Part shown: positions 8,903 to 11,900 of the stretch, in pieces | Layout of the letters: every line of letters begins with the position of its first letter | Position numbering within the stretch: position 1 is the first letter of the stretch | From: a virus | Taxonomy: Duplodnaviria > Caudoviricetes | Direction: 5' to 3' (one strand) | DNA: 64,000 bases | IMG/VR virus record: IMGVR_UViG_3300037418_002116 | Notes under the pieces: model-generated | What the model was told of the DNA's origin: nothing | What the model saw: the letters and a program-made list of their open reading frames with translations, nothing else | Databases searched by the model: none | Program-made: the position numbers and the translations under genes

Positions 8903-9442
8903 TTATATAAACTCATACCAATCATATTTGAATCCGACTGTAGCTGACACAGTACCTTTCTCGGTTGTGTCCATATCGATTCCAGTCAAACTAATGGGCA
9001 TCATGTTACGGAACGTGATATTGATGTTTGGATTCGAAGAGTTCGTTAGAGAGAATAAAGTACCATCAGATGTTACATTGTAACGTTCTGTAACATTCAA
9101 TCTCTTTGCTTCAAAATCTTTGAACTGGTCTGTATTTTGTGGAGCGGTGATACCCACCATCCAATTAAATATTTCCTTGTAGTTTGTTAAATCTTCCGAT
9201 ACACGGAATGATAGAATCAAGTCCTCATAGTACAACTTAGTTGCACCAACGGAAAAATAGTTCAATGGATTGTGGATGACCTTTGGGTCAAAAGAAATTC
9301 CGGGTAGATTCGCACGGAAACAGAAAAATTCTACATTCTTGGCTTCATGAAGCACGAATTTGAATTTATCGACATAAAGCGGATTGACGTTTATGGGTAC
9401 AATCGGTGGACGTTCGATATCAGCCATTTTTTCTGTTGACAT
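8903..9442 (-). CDS. gp3: Tail completion / sheath stabiliser
   Basis: FFCFRANLPGIS, KLYYEDLILSFRVSEDLTNYKEIFNW, F.N..PISL.G. Confidence 0.9.
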   Translation of the reverse strand: MSTEKMADIERPPIVPINVNPLYVDKFKFVLHEAKNVEFFCFRANLPGISFDPKVIHNPLNYFSVGATKLYYEDLILSFRVSEDLTNYKEIFNWMVGITAPQNTDQFKDFEAKRLNVTERYNVTSDGTLFSLTNSSNPNINITFRNMMPISLTGIDMDTTEKGTVSATVGFKYDWYEFI

Positions 9443-9471
9443 TCCTAAAAAATTCGGTATGAGTGTGAATG

Positions 9472-9479
9472 TATTTATA
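9472..9479 (-). promoter_or_regulatory. T4-type late promoter
   Basis: TATAAATA 30 nt upstream of gp3. Confidence 0.8.
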
Positions 9480-9492
9480 AGGAAAGTGACCG

Positions 9493-9663
9493 ATGAAGAC
9501 CGGCGATACCGTTAAGGTTCTGACCTCCCTCACAATGCCCGACGAAAAGGGTAGAGTGAGGGAGATTACGAATCAGGGTCGTGTTGTTGTAGAATTCTCG
9601 GGAAGCCGGGTTGGTTTCTACACTTTAGGGCAGGACGAGTTCGAAATTATCGAATCAGCCTAA
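9493..9663 (+). CDS. Small KOW/SH3-like hypothetical protein (56 aa)
   Basis: Manual translation MKTGDTVKVL...KGRVREI...RVVVEF; below the ORF-track cutoff. Confidence 0.55.
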   Translation: MKTGDTVKVLTSLTMPDEKGRVREITNQGRVVVEFSGSRVGFYTLGQDEFEIIESA

Positions 9664-9670
9664 ATAGAAA

Positions 9671-9748
9671 GCCCATGTAGGCCAATCGGTTAGAGTCGGC
9701 GGACTTAAAATCCGTACAGTGTGGGTTCGAATCCCACCATGGGCACCA
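9671..9748 (+). tRNA. tRNA-Leu(UAA) with a short variable loop
   Basis: GCCCATG/CATGGGC acceptor, GCGGA-CTTAAAA-TCCGT anticodon arm, TTCGAAT T-loop, encoded CCA. Confidence 0.92.
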
Positions 9749-9762
9749 AAACAGGAATAGTT

Positions 9763-9978
9763 ATGAAAATATTCATTTCGTGCAAACATTCCGATATGCT
9801 GGATATGCAAATCGAGGATGAAGACGGGAACTTGATTTTGGAACACCAAGGTTATGGACCAAACATCGGTTCTTTATCTGGTGGAGATTATCTAAGTCTG
9901 GTGATCGATAACGACACTGGAAAAATAATCGATTGGAAACCAATTACCCAAGACGAAATTGAGAACTTCGATGAGTGA
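9763..9978 (+). CDS. Hypothetical protein
   Basis: ATG 9763 with AGGA SD (the track start at 9721 lies inside the tRNA). Confidence 0.65.
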   Translation: MKIFISCKHSDMLDMQIEDEDGNLILEHQGYGPNIGSLSGGDYLSLVIDNDTGKIIDWKPITQDEIENFDE

Positions 9979-10207
9979 TGAAGACGATTCACGTGACCAA
10001 CATCGCCGGAAAATGATGGCGTTTGTGGCCAGTGGTGACACGCCAGATGTGGACGGTCGCAATCTGGGTAACGCTCTCTACACGATGGGCGAACTTGGAT
10101 TGTTTGCAGATGACGTGGATTCGGTTTCGACCGAACAAGCCATTCGCATATATAAACTGATTTCGGCGGTCATGTTAAATGGCTTCCCGAACGATTTGAA
10201 AATGTAA
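9971..10207 (+). CDS. Hypothetical protein
   Basis: ORF overlapping the upstream stop. Confidence 0.6.
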   Translation: MSDEDDSRDQHRRKMMAFVASGDTPDVDGRNLGNALYTMGELGLFADDVDSVSTEQAIRIYKLISAVMLNGFPNDLKM

Positions 10208-10210
10208 TAA

Positions 10211-10287
10211 CGGCGGTTCGTACAGCGGCCTAGTACCCCCTGCTCATAACAGGTGCAACGCCGGTTCGAATCCGGCACCGCCAACCA
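10211..10287 (+). tRNA. tRNA with CAU anticodon (fMet-like acceptor end; Met versus Ile2 identity uncertain)
   Basis: CGGCGGT/ACCGCCA with a C1xA72 mismatch, GTAC/GTAC D-stem, CCCTG-CTCATAA-CAGGT, GCCGG-TTCGAAT-CCGGC, ACCA. Confidence 0.88.
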
Positions 10288-10289
10288 AA

Positions 10290-10385
10290 TTCCTCCGTTA
10301 CGGGCATGTACCGTCACTTGGAGTCCCCTATATTTCGCCGGTCGGATAGGGCACCGTTCAATTCGGGAAACGGAGGAGTCGACCA
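10290..10385 (+). ncRNA. tRNA-cluster structured RNA with a T-loop and CCA end
   Basis: TCCTCCGTT/AACGGAGGA closing stem, ACGG/CCGT and CCCTAT/ATAGGG arms, CCG-TTCAATT-CGG T-arm, 3' GTCGACCA. Confidence 0.65.
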
Positions 10386-10400
10386 TTCAACAAGGGAAAT

Positions 10401-10730
10401 ATGAACACATCTCCATGGGGGAATCCTGCCCCTATCGAAATTCAGGATGAAGCCGACACACCTTTTTATTTCGAAGTCGGCTCGGAAGATGATAAGTTTG
10501 ATTTTGTTTGCACTTCCGCTGATTTGAAAGATATGGTAATTGCGAGTGTGCTTCCATACATGGCGCTTTCGAAGCTTTCTGCCAGTGACATCCTCATTTT
10601 CACATATCGAGAAGAGATAGACGAAATCGCAATCAATCCGGAAATTCCGGCTGGTTATTTCCGTTTGTTTCACGTCGGTAGCAAAACAGACTTCAAAGAA
10701 TTCAAAATTCACGAAAAAAAGGTTGTATAA
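10401..10730 (+). CDS. Hypothetical protein
   Basis: 109-aa ORF with AAGGGA SD. Confidence 0.65.
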   Translation: MNTSPWGNPAPIEIQDEADTPFYFEVGSEDDKFDFVCTSADLKDMVIASVLPYMALSKLSASDILIFTYREEIDEIAINPEIPAGYFRLFHVGSKTDFKEFKIHEKKVV

Positions 10731-10921
10731 TGGAAAAAGTTGTGACATATAGAGAAATTGTGGTTGATGGGGAGACTCATTTGCCTACATATACAAGAAC
10801 CGTTTGGGAAGAGCCTTATTATGAACATGGCGATTCTTTTAACGGTCGTGCGCTACCGGTTCTGGTAGCAGCCGGTACGATTGCTGCATTGATTTCTTTG
10901 TTCCTCATTGCGGTTGTCTAA
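10730..10921 (+). CDS. Small protein with a C-terminal transmembrane segment
   Basis: 63 aa; hydrophobic C-terminus ALPVLVAAGTIAALISLFLIAVV. Confidence 0.6.
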   Translation: MEKVVTYREIVVDGETHLPTYTRTVWEEPYYEHGDSFNGRALPVLVAAGTIAALISLFLIAVV

Positions 10922-10926
10922 AATAT

Positions 10927-11003
10927 TGGAACGTAGCTTAGCCCGGTAAAGCCCTCAACTGATAATTGAGAGATCAGTGGTTCGAATCCACTCGTTCCAA
11001 CCA
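10927..11003 (+). tRNA. tRNA-Ile(GAU)
   Basis: TGGAACG/CGTTCCA acceptor (U1-A72), CTCAA-CTGATAA-TTGAG, AGTGG-TTCGAAT-CCACT, ACCA. Confidence 0.93.
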
Positions 11004-11022
11004 AACATTTAAATATCACTCA

Positions 11023-11051
11023 TTGACATTCCCATATAAGTCCAATATGTT
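11023..11051 (+). promoter_or_regulatory. Sigma70-type early promoter
   Basis: TTGACA-17-TATGTT. Confidence 0.6.
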
Positions 11052-11084
11052 TCGAAAAATTAACCGAAACCAAAGGATTCGCAT

Positions 11085-11900
11085 ATGGAAGCCGAAACGC
11101 TTATTGAGCCGGTCGATTATTTCGCAGATATAAAGAACAAGTTGATTGAAGCCAAGAAAGACGATCTGGCCAAGCAAGTCGGCGTTCTGCAATCACAAAT
11201 CCTTCTAGCGAAGGAAATCGGCCAAACTGCCTTCCTCCACAAATTGTCCTTTGCCTATAGGACAATCGAACGTGAAATTCAAGCCATCGCTGGCGGATGG
11301 AATCATTATGTCCTCGAAAAGGACATCAAAACTTTCATCGACAAGGTGACGCCAAAGCACTCCGTCAAAATCATCGAATTGGAACGGTTCCCACGGGCAA
11401 TTCCGGTCACTGTGCTGGAAAAAATTAAAGTCGCCCAAGCAGCGAAAATTTTCGATAATTTCGTTGTGGTATTCACCGATTTCACCGGCATGACGAATGA
11501 GACGGTGCAGACGGAAGCTGAAAAGGCCGTTGTCGCTCGAAACAAAGACCCGATTGTATTCGGCTATTTTACATCGCCGGAATCGGGCATCCGCTATGAC
11601 AAGTTCTATTTCATAGACGACTGGATCGATGAATATTGCGATCTTGACTATTCCAAGATGATCGAAAAAATGACCGCTCTTGGAATCCAAAATCCAGACA
11701 GAGAATTGGCCATCGATCCGATCATGGTTTCCAACATCGTGGAATCGGTCATGAACGATATGATTGAAAAGGCCAAGCCACGTTGGGACAGAGACAATGG
11801 TGGAGTGACCGTTGTGGAGCGTCCGGTTGCACAGAAGGTTTCATTCTTTCAGAAGGTGAAAAACTTCATCGTTGAGAACGGCAAAATTGGTGCTGACTGA
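11085..11900 (+). CDS. Phage hypothetical protein
   Basis: 271-aa ORF with AAGGA SD; no function recognised. Confidence 0.8.
   Translation: MEAETLIEPVDYFADIKNKLIEAKKDDLAKQVGVLQSQILLAKEIGQTAFLHKLSFAYRTIEREIQAIAGGWNHYVLEKDIKTFIDKVTPKHSVKIIELERFPRAIPVTVLEKIKVAQAAKIFDNFVVVFTDFTGMTNETVQTEAEKAVVARNKDPIVFGYFTSPESGIRYDKFYFIDDWIDEYCDLDYSKMIEKMTALGIQNPDRELAIDPIMVSNIVESVMNDMIEKAKPRWDRDNGGVTVVERPVAQKVSFFQKVKNFIVENGKIGAD

What the first reader, a model, noticed from the sequence alone, without database searches (positions are those of the whole stretch)
10290..10385. Novel CCA-ended multi-arm RNA embedded in the tRNA cluster
It begins 3 nt after the CAU tRNA. It has a perfect 9-bp closing stem (10291-10299/10369-10377), a 4-bp hairpin, a TTGG linker, a 6-bp arm, a canonical T-loop (G-TTCAATT-C) on a 3-bp stem, and a GTCGACCA end. 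The 9+3 bp match the 12-bp acceptor/T ruler of tRNA-processing enzymes, yet there is no anticodon arm geometry. Its context resembles the functionally unknown T4 species 1/2 RNAs (rnaC/rnaD).
Basis: partly seen in the sequence, partly recalled or inferred. Interest (0 to 1): 0.78.

Follow-up and report, generated by a model that had tools for sequence, protein, structure and literature searches.

The report
Optional anticodon-less tRNA-like RNA gene
A small group of soil T4-like phages carries, right behind a methionine tRNA gene, a strongly conserved but dispensable 98-base module that keeps a tRNA's end stem, T-loop and ACCA tail but has no anticodon arm, so it is probably a non-decoding tRNA look-alike of unknown role.

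Summary
A T-arm plus a perfect 9-bp or longer closing stem occurs 0.005 times per shuffled window.

Three distinct copies were found, in the window, an IMG/VR phage contig and two ENA soil contigs. They are 88-94% identical, while the flanking ORF is 58-68% identical at DNA level. All changes fall in two loop or bulge patches, one compensatory A-U to G-C pair and one U-A to U.G.

Two syntenic relatives, one a 196-kb genome rated complete, lack the element exactly. In them the tRNA-Met ACCA runs straight into the next gene's ribosome-binding site. The module is therefore a discrete accessory 98-nt unit bounded by ACCA on both sides, like a tRNA gene.

It is not a decoding tRNA, not a 9/3 allo-tRNA, not in Rfam, and has no second copy. 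The fold is thermodynamically unremarkable (z about 0), covariation is statistically weak, and no RNA data exist.

My best reading (about 0.5) is a non-decoding tRNA mimic cut from the tRNA operon, analogous but not homologous to T4 species 1 and 2 RNAs. This scan has noted the same kind (anticodon-less tRNA-like phage RNAs) in many other phages. I class it as a new variant of a known kind, of moderate interest.

The parts
10211..10287 (+). tRNA-Met(CAU) with encoded ACCA; upstream neighbour and left boundary of the module
   Evidence: ARAGORN and Rfam tRNA at 42 bits.
10288..10385 (+). The 98-nt accessory module (the tRNA-like element), as delimited by the filled-site versus empty-site comparison. 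The boundary is ambiguous within the 4-nt repeat ACCA.
   Evidence: Present in L001:3188-3286, L004:224-319 and L091:508-603. Absent in L090 and in L101 (the same contig as L108)..
10289..10299 (+). 5' strand of the closing (acceptor-like) stem: 9 perfect pairs from 10291, plus U.G and A-U on top
   Evidence: Invariant in all copies.
10300..10314 (+). Hairpin P2 in the D-arm position: 4-bp stem ACGG/CCGU with a hypervariable 7-nt loop (GCAUGUA, ACUCGUG or GCAAGAA)
   Evidence: The loop has no conserved GG.
10316..10324 (+). Mini-hairpin P2b in the anticodon-arm position: 3 bp with an invariant UGG loop
   Evidence: RNAalifold. The pair 10316-10324 is A-U in the window and L004 and G-C in L001. 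This is the only compensatory change.
10326..10351 (+). Arm P3 in the variable-arm position: 6 bp CCCUAU/AUAGGG, a bulge of 4-7 nt of variable sequence, then CC/GG closing a GGUC tetraloop
   Evidence: U-A becomes U.G in L004.
10354..10366 (+). T-arm: 3-bp stem, loop UUCAAUU (fits UUCRANY), with a G-C closing pair as in tRNA G53-C61
   Evidence: Invariant.
10369..10379 (+). 3' strand of the closing stem
10380..10385 (+). Single-stranded tail CGACCA ending in ACCA, the same end as the three tRNA genes of the cluster
   Evidence: An A/U-rich spacer follows, as it does after tRNA-Met in the empty sites.
10401..10730 (+). Downstream 109-aa ORF of unknown function (ribosome-binding site AAGGGA at 10392-97). 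It keeps the same start context in relatives that lack the element.

Best explanation
The 98-nt module is an independent, accessory gene for a non-decoding tRNA-like small RNA. It is laid out like a class II or 9/3-type cloverleaf. It has a long acceptor-like stem, a 4-bp arm in the D position, a long arm in the variable-arm position, and a 3-bp T-arm with a canonical T-loop. The anticodon arm is reduced to a 3-bp, 3-nt-loop stub.

Inferred mechanism:
- It is co-transcribed with tRNA-Leu, tRNA-Met, tRNA-Ile and the small ORFs of this + strand cluster.
- It is released by the tRNA-processing machinery. RNase P would cut at the 5' side of the closing stem, 1-3 nt after the tRNA-Met CCA. The 3' end would be cut or trimmed in the A/U-rich spacer just after its ACCA.
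- It then acts through its acceptor/T-arm half as a tRNA mimic, meaning a competitor, decoy or substrate for a protein that reads the tRNA top half or CCA end. It does not act on the ribosome.

Shown: the anatomy, the strong selective constraint, the unit boundaries, the dispensability and the lack of a decoding arm. Inferred: transcription as a stable RNA, the processing sites and the mimic function.
For: **Anatomy and chance.** All listed stems and the T-loop are present. The T-arm plus closing stem of 9 bp or more is expected 0.005 times per shuffled window.

**Constraint.** Three distinct copies are 88-94% identical. Over the same lineages the adjacent ORF109 is 58-68% identical in DNA and 37-58% in protein, the 15-nt spacer 69-81%, and tRNA-Met 75-97%. 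The 3' 48 nt are identical in all copies.

**Pattern of change fits the fold.** Variable columns lie in the P2 loop and the P3 bulge, including 1- and 3-nt indels. The rest are one A-U to G-C double change and one U-A to U.G change. All 87 pair cells remain paired, against 33-52% when partners are slid.

**Not coding.** The indels break every reading frame.

**Gene-like unit.** In L090 and L101 the sequence runs ...GGGCAACCA|TTT(C/T)A-RBS. In filled sites it runs ...ACCA|AATTCC...GTCGACCA|TT.... The module therefore starts after one ACCA and ends with its own ACCA. All three tRNA genes here also end in ACCA.

**Processing context.** The A/U-rich stretch after the ACCA is shared between the element and tRNA-Met in the empty sites.

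**Dispensable.** G006, 196 kb and rated 100% complete, has no copy anywhere. The same search finds the copy in G001.

**Precedent.** T4 carries two stable RNAs of unknown role directly after tRNA-Arg (PMC3014915). The rnaC sequence contains CCGGGUUCGAAUCCCGG, a canonical T-arm.
Against: - No expression or end-mapping data exist.
- Thermodynamic stability is no better than that of shuffles. In L001 the minimum-free-energy fold does not even form P2.
- Covariation is one pair among three sequences, and 161 of 500 shuffles do as well.
- The T-stem is separated from the closing stem by 2 nt on each side, and the tail is 6-8 nt. Recognition by RNase P, the CCA-adding enzyme or synthetases is therefore not assured.
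- The D-position loop has no conserved GG to form a tRNA elbow.
- There is no Rfam hit, even at E<=10 on the 109 nt alone.
- The proposed mimic or decoy function has no direct support.
Confidence: 0.5

Rival explanations
1. It is a cis-acting element of the polycistronic transcript rather than a free RNA. A tRNA-shaped 'punctuation' or 5'-UTR structure would direct an RNase P cut just after tRNA-Met. It would then stay attached as a protective 5' stem on the ORF109 mRNA, or otherwise tune that gene.
For: It sits between a tRNA and a ribosome-binding site only 7-15 nt downstream. All genes here are tightly packed on the + strand. The only sigma-70-like promoter found in 9300-11300 lies downstream at 11023-11051. 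A closing stem at a new 5' end is a known type of mRNA stabiliser (established knowledge).
Against: Relatives without the element keep the same ORF with the same A/U-rich RBS context directly after tRNA-Met, so the ORF does not need it. The RBS is not paired with any part of the element in the predicted folds. The other tRNA-ORF junctions of the cluster have no such structure. The sequence-specific conservation of the T-loop, the UGG and GGUC loops and the tail is more than a stabilising hairpin would need.
Confidence: 0.2
2. It is a small selfish or mobile insertion (MITE-like or homing-type) that targets the site just after a tRNA gene. The 'stem' would be its terminal inverted repeat and ACCA a target-site duplication.
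For: The presence/absence is precise, with a 4-nt direct repeat ACCA. An 11-bp imperfect terminal inverted repeat is present. The distribution does not follow the flanking-gene similarity: L090, which lacks it, is the closest to the window in ORF109 at 63%. The nearby 271-aa ORF hits a PHROG labelled 'transposase'.
Against: There is a single copy in the 64-kb window and in the 153-kb G001, and no other copy of the repeat arms. A canonical T-loop, a compensatory pair and invariant internal loops point to constraint at the RNA level. The ACCA repeat is simply what two adjacent tRNA-type genes share. The 271-aa ORF has no Pfam or PDB support as a transposase and is also present where the element is absent or the context differs.
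Confidence: 0.08
3. It is a new self-cleaving ribozyme that trims the 3' trailer of tRNA-Met, functionally like the HDV-like theta ribozymes found next to phage tRNAs.
For: Theta ribozymes lie within 5 nt of phage tRNA 3' ends, and over 70% are associated with tRNA-Met, suppressor tRNAs or tRNA-Leu (PMC10879173). The element starts 1-3 nt after tRNA-Met. A helix order P1a<P2a<P3a<P3b<P1b<P2b can be drawn, with closing stem = P1, T-arm = P3 and GGUCGG 10340-45 x UCGACC 10379-84 = P2. This is read directly from the sequence.
Against: There is no P4, no J4/2 with a catalytic C, no P1.1 and no G at +1 (read directly from the sequence). No Rfam ribozyme family matches at E<=10. The P2-like complementarity reaches 6 bp in 13% of shuffles. 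Only 4.5% of tRNAs associated with theta ribozymes encode CCA, whereas this tRNA-Met does. Relatives mature the same tRNA without the element.
Confidence: 0.07
4. It is a decaying duplicate of a tRNA gene (a pseudogene) with no present function.
For: It has a tRNA-like frame with a missing anticodon arm, a weakened T-stem and a fold that is not thermodynamically special. It is dispensable.
Against: A pseudogene should decay evenly. Instead the stems and a 48-nt block are identical across lineages whose neighbouring sequences differ by 20-40%. Changes are confined to two patches or are pair-preserving.
Confidence: 0.05
5. It is a real but aberrant decoding tRNA, for example a 9/3 allo-tRNA.
For: It has a 9-bp acceptor-like stem, a 3-bp T-stem and a long arm in the variable position. 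The base after the 9-bp stem is G, as in Ser-type allo-tRNAs (PMC5389517). Allo-tRNAs come from soil metagenomes (PMC7590224).
Against: There is no 5-6-bp anticodon stem with a 7-nt loop. The only cloverleaf ARAGORN gives at relaxed settings uses a G.U-rich stem that breaks in L001 and L004. The D-stem is 4 bp with a 7-nt loop, not a long stem with a tetraloop. Unpaired bases separate the T-stem from the acceptor stem. There is no hit to the Rfam tRNA or tRNA-Sec models, although allo-tRNAs were discovered as high scorers of the tRNA-Sec model.
Confidence: 0.02

Closest known systems
Phage T4 stable RNAs species 1 and 2 (rnaC, rnaD) in the T4 tRNA cluster
   Same: Both are small non-coding units placed head-to-tail directly after a tRNA gene inside a phage tRNA cluster. 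In T4, rnaD lies 1 nt after tRNA-Arg and rnaC 6 nt after rnaD. rnaC contains a canonical T-arm sequence near its 3' end. The function is unknown (PMC3014915). Both phages are T4-like.
   Different: There is no sequence or covariance-model similarity: the best R1 hit on the T4 region has E = 0.36 and lies elsewhere. The T4 RNAs are longer (139 and 119 nt against about 95). rnaC has a 5-bp T-stem, a strongly stable fold (z = -4.6) and no encoded CCA. The T4 RNAs are experimentally proven stable RNAs, whereas this element is not.
(9/3) allo-tRNAs (Mukai et al. 2017, PMC5389517)
   Same: Both have a 9-bp acceptor-type stem with a 3-bp T-stem and a long extra arm, and both come from soil metagenomes. 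Some allo-tRNA-like genes are thought to be non-translating.
   Different: This element has no anticodon stem-loop. Its D-stem is short with a 7-nt loop. It has 2-nt spacers around the T-stem and 4 extra nt before ACCA. It has no similarity to the tRNA-Sec model.
HDV-like theta ribozymes next to phage tRNAs (Kienbeck et al. 2024, PMC10879173)
   Same: Both sit immediately downstream of a phage tRNA, often tRNA-Met. Both could have a role in defining the tRNA 3' end.
   Different: The defining catalytic core (P1.1, P4, J4/2 cytosine) is absent and no covariance-model hit is found. The neighbouring tRNA already encodes CCA.
Anticodon-less tRNA-like phage RNAs noted earlier in this scan on other genomes (unpublished AI notes)
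   Same: The design principle is the same: tRNA ends and T-arm are kept, the decoding arm is replaced, and the unit often follows a tRNA directly and ends in CCA.
   Different: Those notes describe mostly a tRNA-Leu-like frame with canonical 7/5 stems and a large insert. This element has a 9-bp stem, a 3-bp T-stem and a stub instead of an insert. Model R1 finds nothing in SPP1, a phage that one note names as a carrier of that family.

Membership tests
Canonical tRNA (Rfam RF00005 / ARAGORN) | Anticodon arm: 5-bp stem with a 7-nt loop carrying U33 and a purine at 37 | tested here: not met
   There is no such arm. The position holds a 3-bp stem with a 3-nt loop. ARAGORN's relaxed-mode alternative uses a G.U-rich stem that is not conserved in L001 or L004.
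Canonical tRNA (Rfam RF00005 / ARAGORN) | T-arm with a UUCRANY loop closed by G53-C61 | tested here: met
   CCG-UUCAAUU-CGG at 10354-66. The stem is only 3 bp.
Canonical tRNA (Rfam RF00005 / ARAGORN) | Recognised by tRNA covariance models and gene finders | tested here: not met
   ARAGORN default finds none. Rfam gives no hit at E<=10 on 3 kb or on the 109 nt alone.
Canonical tRNA (Rfam RF00005 / ARAGORN) | Acceptor stem followed by one discriminator base and CCA | tested here: not met
   The stem is followed by GUCGACCA, or by CGACCA if the stem is taken as 11 bp.
(9/3) allo-tRNA | 9-bp acceptor stem and 3-bp T-stem forming one continuous 12-bp branch | tested here: inconclusive
   9 bp and 3 bp are present, but CA and GA (2 nt each) intervene between them.
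(9/3) allo-tRNA | Long D-stem with a tetraloop, and a 6-bp anticodon stem with an anticodon loop | tested here: not met
   The arm in the D position is 4 bp with a 7-nt loop, and there is no anticodon arm. The features are as described in PMC5389517 and PMC7590224.
(9/3) allo-tRNA | [quoted passage not shown] | tested here: not met
   No Rfam match of any kind at E<=10.
T4 species 1/2 RNAs (rnaC/rnaD) | Homology in sequence or structure to T4 rnaC or rnaD | tested here: not met
   Model R1 searched against T4 68000-75000 with filters off gave no hit on rnaC or rnaD.
T4 species 1/2 RNAs (rnaC/rnaD) | Located in a T4-like phage tRNA cluster, directly after a tRNA gene on the same strand | tested here: met
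T4 species 1/2 RNAs (rnaC/rnaD) | Accumulates as a stable processed RNA during infection | not testable with these tools
   No RNA runs were listed for this DNA.
HDV-like / theta ribozyme | Nested double pseudoknot with P1, P1.1, P2, P3, P4 and a catalytic C in J4/2 | tested here: not met
   P1-, P2- and P3-like helices can be drawn, but nothing lies between the closing-stem 3' strand and the P2-like strand. There is therefore no P4, no J4/2 and no P1.1 (read directly from the sequence). Rfam HDV-type models give no hit.
HDV-like / theta ribozyme | Self-cleavage at its own 5' end | not testable with these tools
   This needs an in vitro transcription and cleavage assay.
MITE-like mobile element | Multiple dispersed copies sharing terminal inverted repeats | tested here: not met
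   There is one copy in the window and one in the 153-kb G001. No other occurrence of the paired repeat arms was found.
MITE-like mobile element | Terminal inverted repeats flanked by a target-site duplication | tested here: inconclusive
   An 11-bp imperfect inverted repeat and an ACCA direct repeat exist. ACCA is also the normal end of the tRNA genes here.

The most novel reading that the evidence does not exclude
The RNA is a purpose-built acceptor-end mimic. It would be an anticodon-less, class II-shaped molecule with a long extra arm, a G after the 9-bp stem and a CCA-type end. It could act in either of two ways. It could soak up a host anti-phage factor that attacks or modifies tRNA 3' ends or acceptor stems, for example nucleotidyltransferase or HEPN-type toxins of abortive-infection systems. 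Or it could be charged, for example by SerRS, which does not read the anticodon, and serve a non-ribosomal role. Either would give a function to the long-unexplained class of phage tRNA-cluster RNAs typified by T4 species 1 and 2.
Probability: 0.12. Interest if true: 0.8.

Novelty: new variant of a known kind. Interest (0 to 1): 0.45.

Why it matters
Phage tRNA clusters have been known for 50 years to carry small tRNA-like RNAs, such as T4 species 1 and 2, whose role is still unknown. This element is compact at 98 nt, sharply delimited, clearly under selection, and naturally present or absent among otherwise syntenic phages. That makes it a convenient handle on what such non-decoding tRNA look-alikes do, whether in processing, as decoys against tRNA-targeting defences, or in some other way. 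It also warns annotators that such genes are invisible to tRNA finders and to Rfam.

Tried and rejected
- **Rfam.** cmscan at E<=10 on 3 kb and on the 109 nt alone matched nothing at the element.
- **ARAGORN with relaxed, intron and mitochondrial modes.** It gave only weak cloverleaves whose 'anticodon stem' is not conserved. I rejected these.
- **INPHARED phages, blastn.** Only the flanking tRNAs matched.
- **Pattern scans.** IMG/VR returned only the one related contig. The JGI metagenome scan and the GTDB genome scan each returned one hit, L003 in a high-GC contig (reads like murG) and L092 in Halogranum. Model R1 does not support either.
- **Model R1 on other DNA.** It found nothing in four distant T4-like IMG/VR genomes, the T4 tRNA region, SPP1, G006-G009, L090, L101-L105 or L109-L111.
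- **Sequencing runs.** No RNA holder was listed. Contigs of four further soil runs laid on the region showed no differing letters where they covered the element, so they gave no extra variation.
- **Contigs that could not be read or used.** Contigs for P0003, P0005 and P0015 had no DNA served, and P0054 was not on record. Distant homologues of the 271-aa and 71-aa ORFs (L006, L007, L103, L105, L109-L111) are not syntenic and carry no tRNA cluster.
- **Pseudoknot GGUCGG x UCGACC.** It is possible but not significant, since 13% of shuffles reach 6 bp.
- **Coding potential.** I rejected this for both strands, because indels of 1 and 3 nt break every frame.
- **Promoter reading.** I rejected this, as no sigma-70-like site lies in the element.
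- **Gain versus loss.** Trees of the flanking ORFs were unresolved.

Full report
**1. What is there**

The window is part of a distant T4-like phage assembled from soil and rhizosphere metagenomes. Its UvsW-type helicase is at most 44% identical to any phage in the GenBank-derived set (INPHARED). Six runs hold the DNA completely.

Positions 9671-11003 form a + strand cluster of tRNA-Leu(UAA), two small ORFs, tRNA-Met(CAU), the element, two small ORFs and tRNA-Ile(GAU).

It has these parts:
- a perfect 9-bp stem, 10291-99 / 10369-77
- a 4-bp hairpin with a 7-nt loop
- a linker containing TTGG
- a 6-bp arm
- a 3-bp T-arm with loop UUCAAUU closed by G-C
- a GTCGACCA tail

The stem can be extended to 11 bp by U.G and A-U pairs. 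A script looked for 'T-arm plus perfect closing stem of 9 bp or more'. It found this site once in the window and 0.005 times per shuffled window. The architecture is therefore not a chance pick.

The fold is not thermodynamically special, with z between -0.45 and +0.12, against -1.2 to -2.2 for the three tRNAs. The T-stem is set off from the closing stem by two unpaired bases on each side. The '12-bp ruler' is thus arithmetic rather than a demonstrated continuous stack.

**2. Relatives that carry the element**

The lineage is thinly sampled. Anchoring on the neighbouring ORFs recovered three further copies:
- L001, a 153-kb IMG/VR contig, G001
- L004 and L091, two ENA soil contigs with identical elements

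Pattern scans of IMG/VR, JGI metagenomes and GTDB genomes gave nothing else beyond two hits that model R1 does not support.

The three distinct copies are 88-94% identical. Over the same lineages the downstream ORF is 58-68% identical in DNA and 37-58% in protein, the spacer to its start codon 69-81%, and tRNA-Met 75-97%. From CCGGTCGG to ACCA, 48 nt are identical in all copies.

The variable columns fall into four groups:
- five of the seven positions of the first hairpin's loop
- a patch in the second arm whose length varies by 1-3 nt
- one A-U to G-C double change, which reveals a 3-bp mini-hairpin with an invariant UGG loop inside the 'linker'
- one U-A to U.G change

The indels break every reading frame, so the conservation is not due to a peptide. 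With only three sequences the formal covariation test is weak, since 161 of 500 shuffles reach the observed score. Even so, the pattern of invariant stems and loops beside two free patches is what purifying selection on a folded RNA produces. It is not what recent lateral copying or a decaying pseudogene would produce.

**3. Relatives that lack the element**

Two further syntenic relatives lack the element precisely.

In L090...GGGCAACCA is followed directly by TTTCAGCAAGGAAAAATG, the start of the ORF109 homologue.

In L101 the same tRNA-Met is followed by TTTTATAGGATTTTTGTTG. L101 is the same contig as L108, in a 196-kb genome rated 100% complete.

A whole-record search with model R1 finds no copy elsewhere in that genome. 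The same procedure does find the copy in G001.

The element is therefore a discrete accessory 98-nt module. It begins right after the tRNA's ACCA and ends with its own ACCA, and the same A/U-rich stretch follows in filled and empty sites. All three tRNA genes of the cluster also end in ACCA. This is the best available support for reading it as a tRNA-type gene unit.

It also shows that neither tRNA-Met nor ORF109 needs the element. Its distribution does not follow the similarity of the flanking genes: L090 is the window's closest relative in ORF109. The local trees are unresolved, so I cannot decide between gain, loss and transfer.

**4. What it is not**

- **Not a decoding tRNA.** There is no anticodon arm, default ARAGORN finds nothing, and its relaxed-mode cloverleaf uses a G.U-rich stem that breaks in the relatives.
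- **Not a 9/3 allo-tRNA.** It shares the 9-bp and 3-bp stems and a long extra arm. It lacks the anticodon arm, the long D-stem with a tetraloop and any similarity to the tRNA-Sec model through which that class was found.
- **Not a known ribozyme.** HDV-like theta ribozymes sit within 5 nt of phage tRNA 3' ends, often tRNA-Met. An HDV-like helix order can be drawn using a possible pairing of loop GGUCGG with tail UCGACC. However, there is no P4, no J4/2 cytosine and no P1.1. No Rfam ribozyme model matches, and that complementarity arises in 13% of shuffles.
- **Not a proliferating MITE.** There is one copy per genome and no other copies of the repeat arms.
- **Not homologous to T4 rnaC or rnaD**.

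**5. Most likely mechanism**

The five helices map onto a class II cloverleaf:

| Helix in the element | Position in the cloverleaf |
|---|---|
| Closing stem | Acceptor stem |
| 4-bp arm | D-arm |
| 3-bp stub | Anticodon arm |
| 6+2-bp arm with GGUC tetraloop | Variable arm |
| 3-bp T-arm | T-arm |

I therefore read it as a tRNA-derived, non-decoding tRNA mimic. It would be co-transcribed with the cluster and released by RNase P at the 5' side of its stem. That cut would also leave only a 1-3-nt trailer on tRNA-Met. The 3' end would be made by the same processing that serves the neighbouring tRNAs.

Its conserved top half (stem, T-loop, tail, UGG and GGUC loops) would be the working surface for a tRNA-binding protein. 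The two free patches would be tolerated or specificity-neutral.

The anatomy, the constraint, the boundaries and the dispensability are shown. Transcription as a stable species, the cut sites and any partner are inferred. I put about 0.5 on 'free tRNA-like RNA' and about 0.2 on a purely cis-acting processing or UTR role. The mobile-element, ribozyme, pseudogene and decoding-tRNA readings get smaller shares.

**6. Comparison and novelty**

The nearest described things are the T4 tRNA-cluster RNAs species 1 and 2. These are directly downstream of a tRNA, rnaC has a canonical T-arm, and their function is still unknown. The element works like them in context but is not a member by homology.

Earlier notes of this scan are AI notes that I did not verify. 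They describe 'anticodon-less tRNA-like phage RNAs' in many other phages, and several other odd tRNA-like genes in this same genome. The kind has therefore been met before on other DNA.

This one differs in three ways: the 9-bp stem with a 3-bp T-stem, a stub in place of an insert, and a clean natural presence/absence polymorphism. I rate it a new variant of a known kind with moderate interest. It would rise sharply if a partner or a defence-related role were found.

Noticed in passing
window 9671-9748; also L001:2789-2866 and L101:2907-2984: The 'tRNA-Leu(UAA)' of this phage group is only 78 nt long with a short variable region, which is class I shape. To my knowledge, bacterial leucine tRNAs are class II with a long variable arm. 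Its amino-acid identity may therefore not be leucine.
   Followed up: no
window 10211-10287 versus L001:3110-3187, L004:146-223, L090:408-485 and L101:3468-3544: The window's tRNA-Met(CAU) is only 70-77% identical to the nearly uniform version in four relatives, and many of the changes preserve stem pairing. The adjacent element is 88-94% identical. The region is mosaic: the 82-aa ORF between the 71-aa ORF and tRNA-Met is present in the window, L004 and L101 but absent in L001 and L090.
   Followed up: partly
window 11085-11900: This 271-aa ORF has no Pfam or PDB match but hits phrog_10081, which is labelled 'transposase' (E = 5e-40). Homologues at 40-56% identity occur in many soil phage contigs in unrelated contexts, so the label looks doubtful.
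   Followed up: partly
window 11023-11051: This is the only sigma-70-like promoter match in 9300-11300 (TTGACA-17-TATGTT). It lies just after tRNA-Ile and in front of the 271-aa ORF, and the TTGACA is conserved at the same place in L001 and L004.
   Followed up: no
window, whole: All seven matches to a minimal T-arm descriptor (3 bp plus GTTCRANYC) lie on the + strand and none on the - strand, against 1.8 expected on both strands together. Four are the three tRNAs and this element. The other three (3867, 38751, 51936) were not examined.
   Followed up: no
L096:7876-8220 (G001): The related 153-kb phage contig carries a permuted tmRNA gene (tag DNDNFVPLAVAA) and only four tRNA genes (Ala, Leu, Met, Ile).
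   Followed up: no
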